A stretch of DNA of 4,489 nucleotides, taken from a virus (taxonomy: Duplodnaviria > Heunggongvirae > Uroviricota > Caudoviricetes). Both the position numbers and the translations under genes were made by a program. Below the pieces are notes generated by a model that was not told the DNA's origin, ran no database searches, and saw only the letters and a list, made by a program, of their open reading frames with translations. The stretch's first letter is position 1, and the number at the start of each line of letters is the position of its first letter. Shown one piece after another: positions 1 through 4,489 of the stretch. The stretch lies in the IMG/VR virus record IMGVR_UViG_2675903606_000011; one strand, given 5' to 3'.

Positions 1-182
1 GTGGCCCGCCAGGTATCTGCATCCAGCTCTTCACCGGTATACTCTGCATCCGTCAGATAAACCGCGATCGCAGGAAAATCCTCTTCGTCAAAAACAACGG
101 GGCGACCATCAAACAGCGTCGCCCCGTGTTCATGCTGCTCGAGTGCATCCAGCACTGCCGCACGGATATCAGTATGTTTCAT
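1..182 (-). CDS. U: Tail tube terminator protein, lambda gpU homolog (5' part only; runs off the window start)
   Basis: My reverse-complement translation from the ATG at 182-180 gives MKHTDIRAAVLDALEQHEHGATLFDGRPVVFDEEDFPAIAVYLTDAEYTGEELDADTWRA..., open to position 1. This closely matches the lambda gpU N-terminus as I recall it (MKHTELRAAVLDALEKHDTGATFFDGRPAVFDEADFPAVAVYLTGAEYTGEELDSDTWQA). The ATG overlaps the Z stop (ATGA, TGA at 181-179). Not in the ORF track because it is truncated at about 60 codons. Confidence 0.85.
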   Translation of the reverse strand, partial: MKHTDIRAAVLDALEQHEHGATLFDGRPVVFDEEDFPAIAVYLTDAEYTGEELDADTWRA

Positions 183-754
183 CGTTTTATCGCAATCCTC
201 AGCTGTTGTTTCAGCGCGTATGCCAGTTCTCCGGGCAGACGTTCACGCCGGATACGGTCAACGTTTTCATCAAACGCCTGTTTCAGTGGGGCCGCCATCG
301 GGATTTTCACCACCTGAATAGGAAGGCGATTACGCTTTTTCCTGCCCTTGTCGTCATTGCCCTTCTCATATCTGGCCTGGGGAAGACGTTGCATAACATG
401 CCAGCGCCCATTATTTAATCGCTGGATAAATGCCCGCTGATAACGATGCTGACCGGCTTTGAGTATGCTGTCCGGACGACGCCCCAGCATTCTGATCCCC
501 AGCTTAATCACAGGAAGATCACCGCGGTTAACGATAATTTTTGCATTCGGATTTCTGACCGTGGCCCGTTTCAGTCTGGACCGTTCCTTTACCAGTTTCC
601 GTCTCACCCTGGTTTCCCGGGCAACCTGTGATGAAGACTGATTAATCGCCGTTGTGGCCACGCGGTTAATCGTCATTGCTGAAGCCGCCGGAATGGCGTT
701 TTTACGAACCCGGCTCAGATTATCAATCGCCTGAGCAAGCCCTTTTATCGCCAT
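179..754 (-). CDS. Z: Tail completion protein, lambda gpZ homolog (191 aa)
   Basis: ORF track 179..754(-). N-terminus MAIKGLAQAIDNLSRV..., internal FIQRLNNGRWHVMQR and C-terminus VVKIPMAAP...RIRRERLPGELAYALKQQLRIAIKR match lambda gpZ from memory. Length matches lambda Z (192 aa). ATG at 754-752 is preceded by GGGTGA; position after FII is syntenic. Confidence 0.9.
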   Translation of the reverse strand: MAIKGLAQAIDNLSRVRKNAIPAASAMTINRVATTAINQSSSQVARETRVRRKLVKERSRLKRATVRNPNAKIIVNRGDLPVIKLGIRMLGRRPDSILKAGQHRYQRAFIQRLNNGRWHVMQRLPQARYEKGNDDKGRKKRNRLPIQVVKIPMAAPLKQAFDENVDRIRRERLPGELAYALKQQLRIAIKR

Positions 755-769
755 AATTTCACCCTGCGT

Positions 770-1123
770 TTATCGTCGCCGGTTAACTGCGGGGGGTTGC
801 CCACGGTTGAGCCAGAGATAACAGCTTCCCCCGTCATCCGGAGAAACACGATCCACCCAGAACATCTCGCCGTTAATGGTCAGCGTGTCACCACGCCGCA
901 CGGCACGCACCGTATCCGTCCGCACAAATAATGACGGGCTGCTTCCTTCAATACGGACCCCGCCACCGGCAAAACCCAGCGACTCCGGATCGTCAAAAAC
1001 CCCCTGAACTTCGCCGCCACGTTGTGCTCCGGAGGTGAACTGCGCACGGATCCCCATCACTTCAACGATCGTACTGTCCACCCCGGCAAGGGCAGCATCA
1101 AAGGCATTCTGAAAATCACGCAT
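770..1123 (-). CDS. FII: Head-tail joining protein, lambda gpFII homolog (117 aa)
   Basis: ORF track 770..1123(-). MRDFQNAFDAA..., GVFDDPE, VRIEGSSPSLFVRTD, RRGDTLTI and C-terminus FWVDRVSPDDGGSCYLWLNRGQPPAVNRRR are near-identical to lambda gpFII as I recall it. Same length as lambda FII. ATG at 1123-1121 overlaps the FI stop (TGA 1118-1116) by 8 nt. Confidence 0.9.
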   Translation of the reverse strand: MRDFQNAFDAALAGVDSTIVEVMGIRAQFTSGAQRGGEVQGVFDDPESLGFAGGGVRIEGSSPSLFVRTDTVRAVRRGDTLTINGEMFWVDRVSPDDGGSCYLWLNRGQPPAVNRRR

Positions 1124-1499
1124 ATTCAGCCGTTCCGTGCTGTATCATAGCCGTTGCCAGTGATGATGGCACCAGAACACGCATACCCCGTAACGCCAGC
1201 TCAACGGGACGACCTGTCTCCGGGCAATACCCCATTACTTGCAGGCACTTCCGTACCCGGACGGCTTTAACATCATCCGGAGCATCCGTGTTGTTCAACT
1301 GCTCACCATCGTCTGTGTGATTTTGATCAGCCCCGCTCTCATCAGAGTGCATAATGCCCTCCGGGGAAACAGCAAGCTCCTCTTCCCACTCAGACACACG
1401 TTGAGCAATATCCGCAGCACTCCCCGACATATCCGCCTCGCGCCCCAGCAGGCCAGCCAGTTGACGAAGACGATTCAGATTTTCTTCTTTTGTTGCCAT
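1116..1499 (-). CDS. FI: DNA-packaging/head assembly accessory protein, lambda gpFI homolog (127 aa from the revised start)
   Basis: ORF track gives 1116..1547, but its first 16 codons start at a GTG inside a GC hairpin. The in-frame ATG at 1499-1497 (MATKEENLNRLRQLAGLL...) is preceded by AGGAGG (1510-1505) with a 5-nt spacer. The product has a lambda FI-like layout: helical N-terminus, acidic low-complexity linker (SDESGADQNHTDDGEQLNNTDAPDD), compact C-terminal domain; lambda FI is 132 aa. Identity to lambda is moderate; the call relies on synteny plus pattern. Confidence 0.8.
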   Translation of the reverse strand: MATKEENLNRLRQLAGLLGREADMSGSAADIAQRVSEWEEELAVSPEGIMHSDESGADQNHTDDGEQLNNTDAPDDVKAVRVRKCLQVMGYCPETGRPVELALRGMRVLVPSSLATAMIQHGTAEYA

Positions 1500-1504
1500 C
1501 TCAG

Positions 1505-1510
1505 CCTCCT
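1505..1510 (-). promoter_or_regulatory. Shine-Dalgarno (AGGAGG) for FI
   Basis: Minus-strand sequence ACAGGAGGCTGAG-ATG read directly; the SD sits 5 nt upstream of the proposed FI ATG (1499-1497). Confidence 0.7.
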
Positions 1511-1513
1511 GTG

Positions 1514-1543
1514 AAAAAAGACACGGGGGCATTTCGCCCCCGC
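1514..1543 (-). terminator. Intrinsic-terminator-like hairpin plus U-tract between E and FI
   Basis: Minus-strand RNA reads ...UAA UCCGUGAG CGGGGGC GAAAU GCCCCCG UGUC UUUUUU CACAGGAGG...; 7-8 bp G/C stem (plus 1525-1530 pairs with 1536-1541), 5-nt loop, then a U6 tract (plus-strand A6 at 1514-1519). It lies 8 nt after the E stop codon and just before the FI SD. Probably read through under Q antitermination; may act as a partial terminator or 3' stabiliser. Confidence 0.45.
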
Positions 1544-1550
1544 TCACGGA

Positions 1551-2579
1551 TTATTTCACCTGTACCACCACAAACTCATCAGGATCCGGCAGCACCATCA
1601 GCGGAGCGGACTGCGTCATGGTGAATTCACAGGACGGATCGCCCACGGTCAGCCAGTGTTTCGGGTAACGGGAAGAAGCCACCACTCCTTCAGACAACGC
1701 CTGTGCATCCTTAATGGCTCCATAGCAACGAATCCCCTCTGCCGCCGTATTCCCCAGCACCAGCATGCCCTCCGGCAGATAACGTTTTTCGGTACCGTCC
1801 TCTGCCACATAAGACGTTTTCGCCACCACAATGGCCAGATCGCCGTAATACCCCTTGAAGGACACCACTGCGCCCAGATCTTTCACTGCCGTTTCGAGTT
1901 GTGAATTTGAGCCGCGACGGGTATCCAGTTTTTCGCGGAACAGCTTAAAGCCATTCAGCAGACGCCAGACCGTACCGTCCATAATGGCGATATTCACAAG
2001 GCCGCTGGCCTGATCGCAGTAGAGGTCAATATCATGCGTCGGATCAAACGTATCACGGTCCTGCTCAGACCATTTTTTACCGTCAGCCTGCTCAATGTTA
2101 TTTCCTTCAGAGCGCCCGAAATCCACCTCAACCGTGTCAAACTGATCCCCTTCCATGGTGTATTTGCCATACAGCACGGCATTCACCGCCTGCATTTCTT
2201 CCACCTGGACAATGGCGTGCTCTTCCTGTTTGAGGTTATCGGTAATGATACGCAGACGACGGTAGGCCGGGTCGTTCAGCTGAGCCGGATCTTCACCAGG
2301 AAGGCGCTCAACCGCCTGCTGGTAATTAAATTCGTGTTTGGGCTTGACGTAGCCCGGACGTAACACGCGGGTTTCACCACCACGATGGCGCAGCACTTTT
2401 CCTTCAACGATCGGGGAGACATAGGCCGCCACCGGCGTTTTTCCGGTAATTTTGTCCAGCATCACCTCTTCGGTGTGGAAATTCACCGTACGGCGGAAAA
2501 ACAGCTCCAGAAACAGCGCACGGAATTTCACTTTTTGTTCGGTATAACCGAGTAACTGGCGGGTCGTAAACAATCCCAT
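1551..2579 (-). CDS. E: Major capsid protein, lambda gpE homolog (342 aa)
   Basis: ORF track 1551..2579(-). Long runs identical or near-identical to lambda gpE as I recall it: YVSPIV, PGYVKPKHE, DPAYRRLRII, VQVEEMQAVNAVLYGKYTM, KLDTRRGSNSQLETAVKDLG, MVLGNT, YPKHWLTVGDPSCEFTMTQSAPLMVLPDPDEFV. Lambda E is 341 aa. ATG at 2579-2577 is preceded by AAAGGAA; TAA stop at 1553-1551. Confidence 0.95.
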   Translation of the reverse strand: MGLFTTRQLLGYTEQKVKFRALFLELFFRRTVNFHTEEVMLDKITGKTPVAAYVSPIVEGKVLRHRGGETRVLRPGYVKPKHEFNYQQAVERLPGEDPAQLNDPAYRRLRIITDNLKQEEHAIVQVEEMQAVNAVLYGKYTMEGDQFDTVEVDFGRSEGNNIEQADGKKWSEQDRDTFDPTHDIDLYCDQASGLVNIAIMDGTVWRLLNGFKLFREKLDTRRGSNSQLETAVKDLGAVVSFKGYYGDLAIVVAKTSYVAEDGTEKRYLPEGMLVLGNTAAEGIRCYGAIKDAQALSEGVVASSRYPKHWLTVGDPSCEFTMTQSAPLMVLPDPDEFVVVQVK

Positions 2580-2636: not shown

Positions 2637-2984
2637 TTACGGCAGCGCCGCGTGACTCAGGGCACTGCCGGTAAAGGCGTTGGCCTTTTTGTGTTCATCC
2701 ACACTTTCAGGCCAGCGGATTGCCTCCGTCGCAAAGGTCCCCGACTTGTAATACGTCAGCACCGCCTCTGTGCCTTCAAGCGGCAGTACCAGTATGCCAA
2801 CCGCACTACCGGCTTTCTGTCCATCCCAGACAACCAGTTTCCCGCTGGCTTCATCCGGCATCAGGGGCGTCAGTGCCGGTGTTGCCTGAGAAATCCCGCT
2901 GCTGCCTGTGGCGGTATGAGCCGGATCATTACCGGCAAAAATACGTACTTCTGCACGTTGTTCAGTGATGGTTTTCGTTACCAT
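2637..2984 (-). CDS. D: Head decoration protein, lambda gpD homolog (115 aa)
   Basis: ORF track 2637..2984(-). Motifs NDPAHTAT, TPLM, KLVVWDG, AVGIL, YYKSGTF match lambda gpD from memory (SDPAHTAT...MTPLM...KLVAWDG...AVGIL...FYKSGTF). Lambda D is 110 aa. ATG at 2984-2982 with GAGG upstream; TAA stop at 2639-2637. Confidence 0.9.
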   Translation of the reverse strand: MVTKTITEQRAEVRIFAGNDPAHTATGSSGISQATPALTPLMPDEASGKLVVWDGQKAGSAVGILVLPLEGTEAVLTYYKSGTFATEAIRWPESVDEHKKANAFTGSALSHAALP

Positions 2985-3020: not shown

Positions 3021-3623
3021 TCATGGCATGGCCATGAGCATTTTCACGTCCGCATCACCGTCTGCTGACGTCTGTGACACGCCACCCCGCACCGCTGCCG
3101 GTGAATGATTCGCCATGAAATGTTCAAACAGGGCGGTTGTGGATGCAGAGACCGGTTCTGCTTTATCCGGCGATGAGGACAGAATGTCGCGGGCAGCCTC
3201 CACCGTCATTCCGGGAAACGCCGCCAGTTTTTCAGCCTGCGCCTCAGCCCCTTTTGCCTCATCCAGAGCCATAATCTGATCACGGAGTGAGGGTCCGGCA
3301 TCCGCCAGTGGTGCAGCCGCAAGGATCGGGCGGGCTTTTTCCACCGTCATCTCCGGCATCGCCGCCAGCGTTGCCGCCAGTTGTTCACGACCGTTCGCTT
3401 CTTCACACGCCATAATGCGATCGGCTTCACTCTGCGTGGATGCCACCGGCTGCTGTGGTGCTGCCGCGGTCAGAATCGCCCGGGCCTGTTCAACGCTCAT
3501 GCCCTGTTGTCCTGCCAGCATCGTGGCAAGGTGTTCACGTCCTTTCGCTTCCTGACACGTCAGGATCCCCATCACTCGCTGGTTCTCCTGCGCGGCAGCT
3601 TCCGTTGCAGTTAATTGCGGCAT
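3021..3623 (-). CDS. Nu3: Nested in-frame scaffolding protein, lambda Nu3-like (C-terminal 200 aa of C, from internal ATG)
   Basis: Internal ATG at 3623-3621 (Met248 of C) is preceded by a perfect AGGAGG (3633-3628, 4-nt spacer), which itself encodes Gly-Gly of C. The product MPQLTATEAAAQENQRVMGILTCQEAKG... (200 aa) shares the C stop. In lambda, Nu3 is encoded in the same frame within the 3' part of C (about 200 codons), so size and position match. Independent expression is inferred from the SD, not demonstrated. Confidence 0.6.
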   Translation of the reverse strand: MPQLTATEAAAQENQRVMGILTCQEAKGREHLATMLAGQQGMSVEQARAILTAAAPQQPVASTQSEADRIMACEEANGREQLAATLAAMPEMTVEKARPILAAAPLADAGPSLRDQIMALDEAKGAEAQAEKLAAFPGMTVEAARDILSSSPDKAEPVSASTTALFEHFMANHSPAAVRGGVSQTSADGDADVKMLMAMP

Positions 3624-4364
3624 AGTGCCTCCTGTATCATGTGTGTTCAGCGCCGCATCAATCCGCTGCTGCATGTCCTGGCGAATCTCTTCCGGCAACG
3701 CTTCAAACTGATTGCCATCCACCTTGTGCGCCCCTGAGTAAATCAGCGTGATATCCACACCGGCCTGCGCCAGATGACCGGCATAGCTGACATGGCTCAT
3801 CATCACGCCAATGGAGCCGATACGGGATGTCTGGGTAACCAGCCGTCGGGAGCAGGCCGACGCCAGCAGCATGGCTGCAGAACAGGCCGTGTCATTGCAC
3901 AGTGCCCAGACCGGCTTCTGCTGACGGAGGCGGTAAATCATGTCAGCACAGTCAAACGCACCGGCGGCCTGCCCGCCCGGACTGTCAATGTCCAGCAGTA
4001 CACCCCGCACCTGGCTATCCGCCATTGCCTGCTGAAGACAGGCGACAATGCCGTCATAGCCTGTCATTCCGGAAAATGGCCGCATACCCCCCAGCCGGTG
4101 CACCAGCGTGCCTGTCACCGGCAGTACAGCAATACCGTTCACCACCTGGTAAACACGGGCCGGTCGTTTACCTCCGGCCATGTACTCGTCCGTTTCAGCC
4201 AGCATTCCGGGTGCATCAAGCTGTACCTGCTGTTGTGGTACCGAAAGACTTGCTGCCCCCATCTCGCGCCCGAGCGCGCAAAAGAAAACCCGCGCATAGG
4301 CGGGCTCCAGAAGCAGCGGTTCATTGAATGCTGCGGCAATAATGTGTGAAAGATTACGTCTCAC
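3021..4364 (-). CDS. C: Prohead protease / minor capsid protein, lambda gpC homolog (S49/ClpP-like), 447 aa, apparent GTG start
   Basis: ORF track 3021..4364(-). The N-terminal two thirds match lambda gpC from memory: AFNEPLLLEPAYARVFFCAL, VVNGIAVLPVTGTLV, MTGYDGI, GVLLDIDSPGG, AGAFDCADMI, KPVWAL, SRRLVTQTSRIGSIGVMM, ITLIYSGAHKVDGN. The first codon is GTG (plus 4362-4364 = cac); there is no in-frame ATG upstream of the conserved AFNEPL motif, and an in-frame TAG lies 12 codons upstream. GAGGAG sits 10 nt upstream. Stop TGA at 3023-3021. Confidence 0.9.
   Translation of the reverse strand: MRRNLSHIIAAAFNEPLLLEPAYARVFFCALGREMGAASLSVPQQQVQLDAPGMLAETDEYMAGGKRPARVYQVVNGIAVLPVTGTLVHRLGGMRPFSGMTGYDGIVACLQQAMADSQVRGVLLDIDSPGGQAAGAFDCADMIYRLRQQKPVWALCNDTACSAAMLLASACSRRLVTQTSRIGSIGVMMSHVSYAGHLAQAGVDITLIYSGAHKVDGNQFEALPEEIRQDMQQRIDAALNTHDTGGTMPQLTATEAAAQENQRVMGILTCQEAKGREHLATMLAGQQGMSVEQARAILTAAAPQQPVASTQSEADRIMACEEANGREQLAATLAAMPEMTVEKARPILAAAPLADAGPSLRDQIMALDEAKGAEAQAEKLAAFPGMTVEAARDILSSSPDKAEPVSASTTALFEHFMANHSPAAVRGGVSQTSADGDADVKMLMAMP
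3168..3578 (-). repeat. Three tandem copies of a roughly 40-50 aa motif in the C/Nu3 C-terminal domain (coding repeat)
   Basis: C residues 263-303 RVMGILTCQEAKGREHLATMLAGQQGMSVEQARAILTAAAP; 316-352 RIMACEEANGREQLAATLAAMPEMTVEKARPILAAAP; 363-399 QIMALDEAKGAEAQAEKLAAFPGMTVEAARDILSSSP. Consensus IMxxxEAxGxExxAxxLAxxPxMTVExARxILxxxP, period about 47-53 aa. Seen directly in the translation. Confidence 0.75.
3628..3633 (-). promoter_or_regulatory. Internal Shine-Dalgarno (AGGAGG) for the nested Nu3-like start
   Basis: Minus-strand ...ACA GGA GGC ACT ATG CCG... read directly from the sequence. This is the strongest SD in the window and lies inside the C reading frame. Confidence 0.6.
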
Positions 4365-4489
4365 GTGGTGTTGTCTCCTCTTCCGGCCTGCGACTCTCCG
4401 CTATCTGCTGCTGATACGCCTGCGCTATCCACACCGGACGTGAGAGTCCGGCTTTTTCCCGCTCTGCAGATTCCCTGACCTGCTGGCGG
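4354..4489 (-). CDS. B: Portal protein, lambda gpB homolog, C-terminal 44 codons only (5' end outside the window)
   Basis: My reverse-complement translation of 4489..4354 in the one protein-like frame gives ...RQQVRESAEREKAGLSRPVWIAQAYQQQIAESRRPEEETTPRET with TAA at 4356-4354. It overlaps the C start by 11 nt; allowing for the C N-terminus being about 3 codons shorter than lambda's, this reproduces the 20-nt B/C overlap I recall for lambda. The call is by synteny and frame quality; I cannot verify the portal C-terminal sequence from memory. Confidence 0.6.
   Translation of the reverse strand, partial: RQQVRESAEREKAGLSRPVWIAQAYQQQIAESRRPEEETTPRET

What the first reader, a model, noticed from the sequence alone, without database searches (positions are those of the whole stretch)
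3021..4364. GTG-initiated protease gene with a strong internal AGGAGG-ATG start for the nested scaffold
The full-length C reading frame can only begin at a GTG (4364-4362), with an SD-like GAGGAG at a long 10-nt spacing. In contrast, the internal in-frame ATG at 3623-3621 has a perfect AGGAGG 4 nt upstream. This fits the stoichiometry known for lambda (few copies of protease C, many copies of scaffold Nu3 per procapsid) and would be a simple translational way to set that ratio. The internal SD is dual-coding: it must also encode Gly-Gly (GGA GGC) in the protease.
Basis: partly seen in the sequence, partly recalled or inferred. Interest (0 to 1): 0.5.

Follow-up and report, generated by a model that had tools for sequence, protein, structure and literature searches.

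The report
Phage protease gene with nested scaffold
This is the well-known lambda/phage-21 arrangement in which a capsid protease gene contains a second, in-frame start for the scaffold protein, but this E. coli prophage copy has lost 54 codons of the protease domain, so the protease is probably dead.

Summary
On the minus strand the ORF 4364..3021 can start only at GTG 4364-4362 (GAGGAG, then 10 nt). An in-frame ATG at 3623-3621 follows AGGAGG by 4 nt, and that hexamer also encodes Gly-Gly.

The arrangement is already known. The window is 95% identical to phage 21 genes 5 and 6, whose GenBank record annotates the same GTG, both ribosome-binding sites and the nested gene. It is homologous to lambda C/Nu3.

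In 41 lineages (38-100% identity) the internal start is always ATG. The rare Gly codon GGA makes up 79% of Gly codons just upstream, against 12.5% gene-wide (p about 1e-25). The dual-coding SD is therefore real and old.

The idea that a weak GTG and a strong ATG set the protease:scaffold ratio is only partly supported. SD energies here are -9.1 and -10.3 kcal/mol. Only 8 of 41 lineages use GTG. The GTG overlaps the portal stop by 11 nt, so coupling is an alternative.

It removes 36% of the S49 domain but leaves the scaffold ORF and its SD intact. It is rare but real, seen in five contigs on two backgrounds. Interest is low.

The parts
4354..4489 (-). 3' end of the portal gene (phage 21 gene 4 / lambda B homologue). 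Its stop codon TAA is at 4356-4354.
   Evidence: Frame translation. Annotated portal CDS in phage 21, M15 and PhiR12 overlaps the protease start by 11 nt.
4375..4380 (-). SD-like GAGGAG, 10 nt upstream of the GTG start
   Evidence: duplex energy with the 16S tail -9.1 kcal/mol. Annotated as a putative RBS of gene 5 in M81255 and OL657228.
4362..4364 (-). GTG start codon of the protease-scaffold fusion (gene 5 / C homologue). It lies inside the portal gene: GTGAGACGTAA.
   Evidence: It is the only canonical start between the upstream in-frame stop and the conserved N-terminus. The same start is used in the phage 21, PGAP and lambda annotations.
3021..4364 (-). Gene 5 / C homologue carrying an in-frame 162-bp deletion: 447 aa instead of 501 aa. 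It is identical to NCBI WP_053879778.1.
3879..3881 (-). Codon for Ser162, which aligns with the nucleophile Ser motif of SppA. It is retained.
   Evidence: Alignment to PDB 3RST/4KWB. Invariant column in alignments A1-A3.
3723..3725 (-). Codon for Lys214 (AHKVDG), the candidate general-base lysine. It is retained.
   Evidence: Invariant in alignments A1-A3. Its catalytic role is an inference from the S49 family and was not tested.
3650..3657 (-). Deletion junction: the single remaining copy of the 8-bp direct repeat TGCGGCGC. In undeleted relatives, 162 bp that encode the last third of the S49 domain lie between two copies of this repeat.
3628..3633 (-). Internal Shine-Dalgarno AGGAGG, dual-coding as A-GGA-GG(C), which gives Gly245-Gly246 of the long protein
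   Evidence: Conservation and GGA codon bias across 41 lineages.
3621..3623 (-). Internal in-frame ATG: the start of the nested scaffold gene (phage 21 gene 6). It is homologous to lambda C codon 309 (lambda coordinate 5342).
3021..3623 (-). Nested scaffold ORF (gp6 / Nu3 homologue): 200 aa, 20.8 kDa, pI 4.7. It is intact and co-terminal with the long frame (TGA at 3023-3021).
3153..3596 (-). Three diverged protein repeats of about 46 aa in the scaffold part (the 'Tri boxes' of phage 21), at approximately 3596-3459, 3437-3300 and 3290-3153
   Evidence: Protein self-alignment. Annotated as Tri1/Tri/Tri3 boxes in M81255. Copy number varies among relatives.

Best explanation
The region is the phage-21-type capsid maturation protease / scaffold gene pair (phage 21 genes 5 and 6, homologous to lambda C and Nu3) in an E. 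coli lambdoid prophage. One reading frame gives two co-terminal proteins. Ribosomes that start at the GTG, which lies inside the last 11 nt of the portal gene, make the long protein: an S49 serine-protease domain fused to the scaffold sequence. Ribosomes that start independently at the internal AGGAGG-N4-ATG, just after the protease domain, make the 200-aa acidic scaffold alone. The shared C-terminal part carries the protease into the procapsid together with the scaffold. The internal SD is kept at the nucleotide level (codon GGA) while also encoding Gly. Shown here: homology, synteny, the start sites, and deep conservation of the internal ATG and SD. Inferred: that both proteins are made, and in what ratio. 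The GTG, the distant SD and possible coupling to portal translation would all favour low output of the long form. In this copy a 162-bp in-frame deletion between two 8-bp direct repeats has removed residues 244-297 of the 501-aa protein, about 36% of the S49 domain. It left the catalytic Ser and Lys codons, the internal SD and ATG, and the whole scaffold ORF intact. The long product is therefore most likely an inactive protease remnant fused to scaffold, and the prophage probably cannot mature heads on its own.
For: Pfam assigns S49 to the long ORF. Downstream lie lambda-type D, E, FI, FII and Z genes, and the portal gene lies upstream. The region is 95-99% identical at the nucleotide level to phage 21 and PhiR12 phages, and matches in 2,034 of 5,426 complete E. 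coli genomes (1,866 of them over at least 80% of the region). Phage 21 records annotate the same GTG, both RBSs and nested gene 6. NCBI names this exact protein 'phage head-tail preconnector protein [contains: scaffold protein]'. The protein alignment with lambda places the internal ATG opposite lambda codon 309, which has the same AGGAGG-N4-ATG and Gly-Gly. Across 41 lineages the internal start is always ATG, lies 21-29 codons after the end of the S49 domain, and has GGA as 38 of 48 upstream Gly codons against 12.5% gene-wide (binomial p 9e-26). Serratia phage BZS1 has the protease and the following gene as separate ORFs, and phages Sano and BcepNazgul annotate a nested second CDS. For the deletion: every full-length hit listed aligns in two pieces spanning 1631 bp against 1469 bp in the window. 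The junction and the 8-bp repeats are mapped. Pfam S49 coverage falls from positions 3-151 to 3-95 of 154. B. subtilis SppA (PDB 3RST) aligns across residues 77-289, so the lost segment lies inside the fold. The same allele is found in independent assemblies, including a Logan assembly from raw reads.
Against: There are no expression data. Whether both products are made, and their ratio, is inferred from sequence and from what is known of lambda. Loss of protease activity is predicted and not shown: the catalytic Ser162 and Lys214 codons remain, the deletion is in frame, and the allele sits in at least two sequence backgrounds next to apparently intact late genes. A partly functional protein is therefore not excluded. 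Structure prediction could not help (pLDDT about 40).
Confidence: 0.85

Rival explanations
1. One reading: the protease:scaffold ratio is set mainly by a weak initiation site (GTG plus a distant, imperfect SD) against a strong one (ATG plus a perfect SD).
For: GTG against ATG, and a 10-nt against a 4-nt spacer. GTG is also used by the lambda, Gifsy-1, Trabulsiella, Providencia, Cedecea and Serratia lineages. There is no promoter-like site upstream of the internal start that would offer a transcriptional route. From my own knowledge, unverified here: lambda procapsids hold roughly ten C and many more Nu3 copies.
Against: The SD duplex energies are close (-9.1 against -10.3 kcal/mol), and both spacers are off optimum. 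In lambda and Gifsy-1 the GTG has a very strong SD (-12). 33 of 41 lineages start the protease with ATG, and the internal SD is the stronger one in only 23 of 41. The GTG sits inside the portal gene in every annotated relative (overlaps of 4-20 nt), so coupling to portal translation could set the level instead.
Confidence: 0.35
2. The internal ATG is an ordinary Met codon with a chance SD-like sequence, and the scaffold-sized product arises only by proteolytic processing of the long protein.
For: AGGAGG-N4-ATG alone is only modestly improbable in a 4.5-kb window (10 of 200 shuffles reach one match). C-type proteases are reported to be processed (PMC3224144).
Against: The ATG and GGAG are conserved at the same place in 41 lineages down to 38% identity. 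The GGA codon bias there cannot be explained by selection on the protein. Phage 21, Sano and BcepNazgul annotate nested genes, and BZS1 has a separate downstream gene.
Confidence: 0.03
3. The 54-codon deletion allele is functional: either a shortened but active protease, or a tolerated variant of a viable phage.
For: The deletion is in frame. The catalytic Ser and Lys are retained. The identical junction occurs in two backgrounds 3.6% apart and in five contigs from at least five samples (the contig tables imply up to seven). In the 17-kb contig every called late gene from holin to tape measure has its expected family and length.
Against: 36% of the Pfam S49 profile is lost, and the lost segment aligns inside the crystallised SppA fold. 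No junction-spanning match appears among the best hits from 5,426 complete E. coli genomes, and the junction 25-mer is absent from GTDB species representatives, IMG/VR and JGI metagenomes. Other rare alleles carry different in-frame deletions in the same domain, including one that removes the catalytic-Ser motif, which looks like decay. C is essential in lambda (PMC10695390).
Confidence: 0.12
4. The deletion is an assembly or sequencing artefact.
For: The window is a short (4.5 kb) contig from a draft assembly that probably contains several similar prophages.
Against: The same junction occurs in five contigs from different assemblies and pipelines, including Logan assemblies of raw reads, on two sequence backgrounds. 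An 8-bp repeat is too short to collapse in a k-mer assembly (inference).
Confidence: 0.03

Closest known systems
Phage 21 genes 5 and 6 (head-tail preconnector gp5 / scaffold gp6; GenBank M81255, OL657228)
   Same: 95% nucleotide identity. Same GTG start with the same upstream GAGGAG, the same 11-nt overlap with portal gene 4, the same internal (G)AGGAGG-CACT-ATG and 200-aa nested product, the same three Tri boxes, and the same downstream shp (D), 7 (E) and following genes.
   Different: The window lacks 162 bp (residues 244-297 of gp5). It has the THDTGG variant of the linker in place of SNVRGG, so its SD is AGGAGG where phage 21 has GAGGAGG. Phage 21 itself has only a 6-bp match at the right-hand repeat.
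Bacteriophage lambda C / Nu3
   Same: Homologous S49 protease (58% identity in alignment A1; 53% by tblastn). GTG start overlapping the portal gene B. An in-frame AGGAGG-N4-ATG that encodes Gly-Gly immediately after the protease domain (lambda 5342). A shared scaffold motif, ENSRIMGIL..GREE..PGMTV..AR.IL. The C/Nu3 overlap is established knowledge (Shaw and Murialdo 1980, cited in PMC8508860).
   Different: Lambda has one scaffold repeat and a long Ser/Thr/Ala-rich linker. Its GTG has a much stronger and closer SD (-12 kcal/mol). RefSeq places the nu3 start at 5132 (201 aa, weak SD), which is not the conserved site. Lambda has the complete protease domain.
Signal peptide peptidase A (SppA), peptidase family S49 (PDB 3RST, 4KWB, 3BF0)
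   Same: The protease domain of the undeleted relative aligns to B. subtilis SppA over residues 77-289 (E 3e-16), including the nucleophile Ser motif. Pfam PF01343 matches.
   Different: It is not a membrane protein and is fused to a phage scaffold. In the window the last 56 of the 154 profile positions are missing.
Nested protease/scaffold genes of other viruses (Mu I/Z, P2 gpO, herpesvirus UL26/UL26.5). These are recalled from general knowledge and were not tested here.
   Same: In-frame, co-terminal protease-scaffold and scaffold-only products, so that the protease is packaged through the scaffold's interactions.
   Different: The protease folds and the ways of making the short form differ. 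For example, herpesviruses use a separate promoter, and P2 gpO is processed. No sequence comparison was made here.

Membership tests
Lambda C/Nu3 - phage 21 gp5/gp6 nested protease-scaffold gene pair | N-terminal domain homologous to peptidase family S49 | tested here: met
   PF01343 E 5e-22, 79 bits against a cut-off of 24.9. 95-99% nucleotide identity to phage 21-type genes.
Lambda C/Nu3 - phage 21 gp5/gp6 nested protease-scaffold gene pair | In-frame internal start (SD plus ATG) just after the protease domain, giving a co-terminal scaffold ORF | tested here: met
   AGGAGG-N4-ATG at 3633-3621 gives a 200-aa ORF. It is homologous to the annotated phage 21 gene 6 start and to lambda codon 309. 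It is conserved in 41 lineages.
Lambda C/Nu3 - phage 21 gp5/gp6 nested protease-scaffold gene pair | C-terminal part homologous to the Nu3/gp6 scaffold | tested here: met
   Alignment with phage 21 gp6 and lambda Nu3, and three Tri repeats.
Lambda C/Nu3 - phage 21 gp5/gp6 nested protease-scaffold gene pair | Position in the head gene block: portal upstream (overlapping), decoration and major capsid genes downstream | tested here: met
   The portal end overlaps the GTG by 11 nt. D, E, FI, FII and Z lie downstream with full-length Pfam matches.
Lambda C/Nu3 - phage 21 gp5/gp6 nested protease-scaffold gene pair | Two proteins actually made from the one frame, with the scaffold in excess | not testable with these tools
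   Needs proteomics, ribosome profiling or reporter fusions. The papers that report the lambda data were not available in the library.
Active S49 serine peptidase | Nucleophile Ser and general-base Lys present | tested here: met
   Ser162 aligns with the SppA Ser motif. Ser162 and Lys214 are invariant in alignments A1-A3. The identity of the catalytic Lys is inferred.
Active S49 serine peptidase | Complete S49 fold | tested here: not met
   The Pfam match covers profile positions 3-95 of 154, against 3-151 in the undeleted relative and in lambda C. The deleted residues 244-297 fall inside the region that aligns to the SppA crystal structure.
Active S49 serine peptidase | Proteolytic activity | not testable with these tools
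   An enzymatic assay is needed. The AlphaFold models were too poor to judge the fold.

The most novel reading that the evidence does not exclude
The identical 162-bp deletion in two diverged prophage backgrounds is not mere decay but a selected allele. On this reading, a protease-dead protein that keeps the scaffold sequence is still made from the GTG and is incorporated into procapsids. There it could act as a dominant-negative that blocks head maturation of related superinfecting or co-resident lambdoid phages, or it could keep the prophage non-lytic while the scaffold is retained. A weaker version is that the 8-bp microhomology is a recurrent deletion hotspot that repeatedly inactivates this protease.
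Probability: 0.06. Interest if true: 0.5.

Novelty: already known. Interest (0 to 1): 0.15.

Why it matters
The finding as stated matters little, because it rediscovers the lambda C/Nu3 and phage 21 gene 5/6 arrangement, which is in the textbooks and in GenBank annotation.

Three by-products have some practical value:

- The comparative data show that the internal Shine-Dalgarno is held at the nucleotide level (codon GGA) across gammaproteobacterial phages down to 38% identity. This is a clean example of dual coding.
- The same data place the conserved scaffold start in lambda at 5342, not at the RefSeq nu3 start at 5132. That is relevant to annotation pipelines, which mostly omit the nested gene.
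- This E. coli allele, named 'S49 family peptidase' in NCBI, lacks a third of the domain. Automatic annotation hides what is probably a head-maturation defect in the prophage.

Tried and rejected
- AlphaFold2 models of the undeleted (498 aa) and deleted (447 aa) proteins gave mean pLDDT of 39.6 and 40.3, because the only alignment I was allowed to use was shallow (27-29 sequences, at least 82% identical). I did not use the models and ran no fold search.
- The literature library does not hold Medina et al. 2010 or 2011, Liu et al. 2013 (lambda ribosome profiling) or the Casjens and Hendrix review, and the text searches turned up no paper on phage 21 genes 5 and 6. Procapsid copy numbers and the experimentally determined Nu3 N-terminus could therefore not be checked and are marked as my own knowledge.
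- Tandem Repeats Finder did not detect the Tri boxes at the DNA level because they are too diverged. One repeat finder failed on strand syntax. The repeats were shown at the protein level instead.
- An internal promoter as the source of extra scaffold was considered. No sigma-70-like site lies upstream of the internal start.
- An RNA element was considered. There are no Rfam hits.
- I considered whether the deletion changes access to the internal RBS.
- My automated estimate of the portal-protease overlap picked the wrong frame for some loci. I rely on the annotated records instead.
Full report
WHAT THE WINDOW IS

The 4489-base window is a complete short contig (CYAZ01000124.1, E. coli assembly GCA_001284505.1). 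On its minus strand it carries a lambdoid head gene block:
- the end of the portal gene (stop at 4356-4354);
- the ORF in question (4364..3021);
- homologues of lambda D (2984..2637), E (2579..1551), FI (1499..1116), FII (1123..770) and Z (754..179);
- the start of U.

Each downstream protein gives a full-length Pfam match.

The region is 95% identical in DNA to phage 21 and 98-99% identical to the PhiR12 phages. Related sequence occurs in 2,034 of 5,426 complete E. coli genomes, and in 1,866 of them it covers at least 80% of the query.

CHECK OF THE OBSERVATION

- The long frame is closed upstream by TAG at 4403-4401. It holds no ATG, GTG or TTG before the GTG at 4364-4362.
- The next in-frame start (codon 35) would remove an N-terminal block conserved with lambda C.
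- GAGGAG lies 10 nt upstream of the GTG.
- AGGAGG (3633-3628) lies 4 nt upstream of the in-frame ATG at 3623-3621, and it reads GGA GGC (Gly-Gly) in the long frame.
- AGGAGG-N4-ATG occurs once, against 0.05 expected from shuffles.
- AGGAGG occurs only twice in the whole window on either strand. The other copy is the FI ribosome-binding site.

WHAT IT IS

The ORF is the phage 21 gene 5 / lambda C homologue: an S49 serine protease fused to a scaffold sequence. The nested ORF is phage 21 gene 6 / lambda Nu3.

The two phage 21 GenBank records already annotate the GTG start with its upstream ribosome-binding site, the internal ribosome-binding site and ATG, the 200-aa nested gene, and three 'Tri boxes' inside it. 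NCBI names this exact 447-aa protein 'phage head-tail preconnector protein [contains: scaffold protein]'. The overlap of C and Nu3 in lambda is long established (Shaw and Murialdo 1980, cited in PMC8508860; roles of C and Nu3 in PMC3224144; both essential, PMC10695390).

The lambda C annotation also starts with GTG. In a protein alignment the window's internal ATG lies opposite lambda C codon 309 (lambda coordinate 5342). That codon has the same AGGAGG, a 4-nt spacer, ATG and Gly-Gly. It does not lie opposite the RefSeq nu3 start at 5132.

COMPARATIVE TEST

I collected 160 related loci from IMG/VR and from GTDB species representatives, plus annotated phages. I reduced them to 41 lineages by clustering the protease domain at 85% identity. 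These span 38-100% identity and include Escherichia, Salmonella, Enterobacter, Serratia, Vibrio, Photobacterium, Pseudomonas and Marinobacter.

For the internal start:
- In every lineage an in-frame start lies 21-29 codons after the end of the S49 domain, and it is always ATG.
- 35 of 41 lineages have an in-frame GGA codon within the five codons upstream.
- GGA is 38 of the 48 Gly codons there, against 12.5% of Gly codons across the same genes (binomial p 9e-26).

Selection on the amino acid alone cannot explain this bias. The GGAG core of a Shine-Dalgarno sequence is being kept. The dual-coding claim is therefore correct, and the nested start is an ancient feature of the family.

Supporting variants exist. 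Serratia phage BZS1 has the protease gene followed by a separate 199-aa gene. Phages Sano and BcepNazgul annotate nested second genes.

HOW THE RATIO IS SET

- The calculated SD:anti-SD energies here are -9.1 kcal/mol (GTG) and -10.3 kcal/mol (ATG).
- Both spacers, 10 nt and 4 nt, are off the usual optimum.
- Only 8 of 41 lineages start the protease with GTG.
- The internal SD is the stronger of the two in only 23 of 41 lineages.
- Lambda and Gifsy-1 pair their GTG with a very strong SD (-12).
- In every annotated relative the protease start lies inside the end of the portal gene. The overlap is 11 nt in the window, phage 21, M15 and Gifsy-1; 20 nt in lambda and phi80; 8 nt in Sano; and 4 nt in BcepNazgul and BZS1.

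Coupling of protease synthesis to portal translation is therefore a plausible alternative or additional control. I found no promoter-like site that could drive a separate scaffold transcript.

The statement that a lambda procapsid holds about ten C and many more Nu3 copies is from my own memory. The papers needed to check it were not available.

Every full-length hit listed, including the 99.4%-identical one, aligns in two pieces that span 1631 bp against 1469 bp of the window. The window lacks 162 bp.
- In undeleted relatives such as E. coli M15, the gene is 1506 nt (501 aa). The sequence TGCGGCGC occurs exactly twice in it, 162 bp apart.
- The window keeps one copy, at 3650-3657, and has lost everything between the two.
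- The deletion is in frame and removes residues 244-297.
- Pfam S49 coverage falls from profile positions 3-151 of 154 (121 bits) to 3-95 (79 bits).
- The lost segment lies inside the region that aligns to the crystal structure of B. subtilis SppA.
- The Ser162 and Lys214 codons, the internal SD and ATG (26 nt downstream of the junction) and the whole scaffold ORF are untouched.
- The predicted accessibility of the internal ribosome-binding site is unchanged.
- The other genes in the window are intact and have the same length as in M15.

IS THE DELETION REAL, AND HOW COMMON IS IT?

The identical 447-aa protein is also on an independent assembly (DAFLSA010000146.1). That contig differs from the window at four bases elsewhere.

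A second 447-aa protein (P0005, 96% identical) has the same junction on three more contigs, one of them a Logan assembly of raw reads. In the longest of these (17 kb), every called late gene from holin to tape measure has its expected family and length.

At the DNA level the window's gene is 99.7% identical to the undeleted M15 allele, but only 96.4% identical to these other carriers. The same deletion therefore either arose twice at this microhomology or moved between backgrounds by a short recombination tract.

The allele is rare.
- The junction 25-mer is absent from GTDB species representatives, IMG/VR and JGI metagenomes.
- Among 5,426 complete E. coli genomes, the best-ranked hits to an 80-nt junction probe are all two-piece matches spanning 242 bp. 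No exact junction-spanning match outranks them.

Other rare alleles carry different in-frame deletions in the same domain (41, 29 and 10 aa, the last removing the catalytic-Ser motif). This looks like prophage decay. By contrast, the common length classes (451/452, 482, 501, 551 and 657 aa) differ in the number of Tri-box repeats in the scaffold.

MOST LIKELY MECHANISM AND STATUS

The late mRNA is translated through the portal gene. A minority of ribosomes start at the overlapping GTG and make the protease-scaffold fusion. Ribosomes start independently at the internal AGGAGG-ATG and make the 20.8-kDa acidic scaffold (pI 4.7). Its three repeats and C-terminal tail are shared with the long form, which is how the protease would be taken into the procapsid.

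Homology, synteny, the start sites and their conservation are shown here. Synthesis of both proteins and their ratio are inferred.

In this copy the long product most likely cannot fold into an active S49 protease, so the prophage would need a helper to mature heads. I put this at about 75-85% likely. The main alternative, a tolerated or even selected allele, I put at about 12%.

NOVELTY AND SCORE

The feature reported is already known and already annotated in public records. The deletion allele is a minor, private variant of a known gene. Interest is low (0.15).

The most novel reading not excluded is that the recurrent protease-dead, scaffold-intact allele is selected, for example as a dominant-negative inhibitor of head maturation in related phages. 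I give this about 6%.

Noticed in passing
window 3650-3657 (junction); the missing segment corresponds to L004 4041-4202: There is a 162-bp in-frame deletion between two copies of TGCGGCGC. It removes 54 residues (36% of the S49 profile) of the protease domain. The identical junction is also present in a prophage background 3.6% diverged (L008-L010), so it is either recurrent or was transferred.
   Followed up: yes
window about 3153-3596 (-); relatives P0045, P0104, P0116, P0003, P0002: The scaffold part contains three diverged repeats of about 46 aa (the 'Tri boxes' of phage 21, function unknown). Their copy number is polymorphic among E. coli prophages, giving protein classes of 451/452, 482, 501, 551 and 657 aa. 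The 482-aa class is the commonest, on more than 1000 contigs. Lambda has one repeat.
   Followed up: partly
L001 (lambda) 2333 against 2543, which are lambda coordinates 5132 against 5342: RefSeq and GenBank annotate lambda nu3 from ATG 5132 (201 aa, weak SD, inside the S49 domain). The start conserved across 41 lineages corresponds to ATG 5342 (131 aa, AGGAGG 4 nt upstream). The 131-aa product appears in databases only as 'hypothetical protein'. From memory, later biochemical work and UniProt use the 131-aa form, but I could not verify this.
   Followed up: partly
P0008, P0010, P0014, P0096 (E. coli homologues): Other rare alleles have different in-frame lesions of the same gene. [quoted passage not shown] P0014 loses 10 aa that include the catalytic-Ser motif CSAAMLLASA. 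P0096 lacks the N-terminus and the internal start region.
   Followed up: partly
window 2629-2608 (-) and 1543-1523 (-): Two strong GC-rich hairpins followed by T-runs lie on the coding strand, immediately after the stop codons of the D-like and E-like genes (-18.4 and -22.9 kcal/mol, z about -3.9). They look like intrinsic terminators inside the late operon. Possibly they are read through under Q antitermination, or act as barriers that stabilise the 3' ends of the D and E mRNA.
   Followed up: partly
window 1499-1547 (-): The mechanical ORF for FI starts at GTG 1547 (143 aa). However, the ATG at 1499 has AGGAGG just upstream (1510-1505) and gives the 127-aa protein annotated in relatives. 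The longer ORF would also run through the terminator-like hairpin.
   Followed up: partly
L107-L110, L112-L116, L130, L132, L142, L148 (GTDB genome contigs): Lambda-type C genes appear on short, low-coverage contigs (coverage about 1) of taxonomically unrelated genomes, including Neobacillus, Kitasatospora, Shewanella, Leeuwenhoekiella, Oceanobacillus and an Akkermansia MAG. This is most likely lambda DNA contamination of those assemblies and not genuine prophages.
   Followed up: no
window 1116-1123 and 179-181 (-): Short gene overlaps continue down the operon: FI/FII overlap by 8 nt and Z/U by ATGA. This is consistent with widespread translational coupling in this gene block.
   Followed up: no
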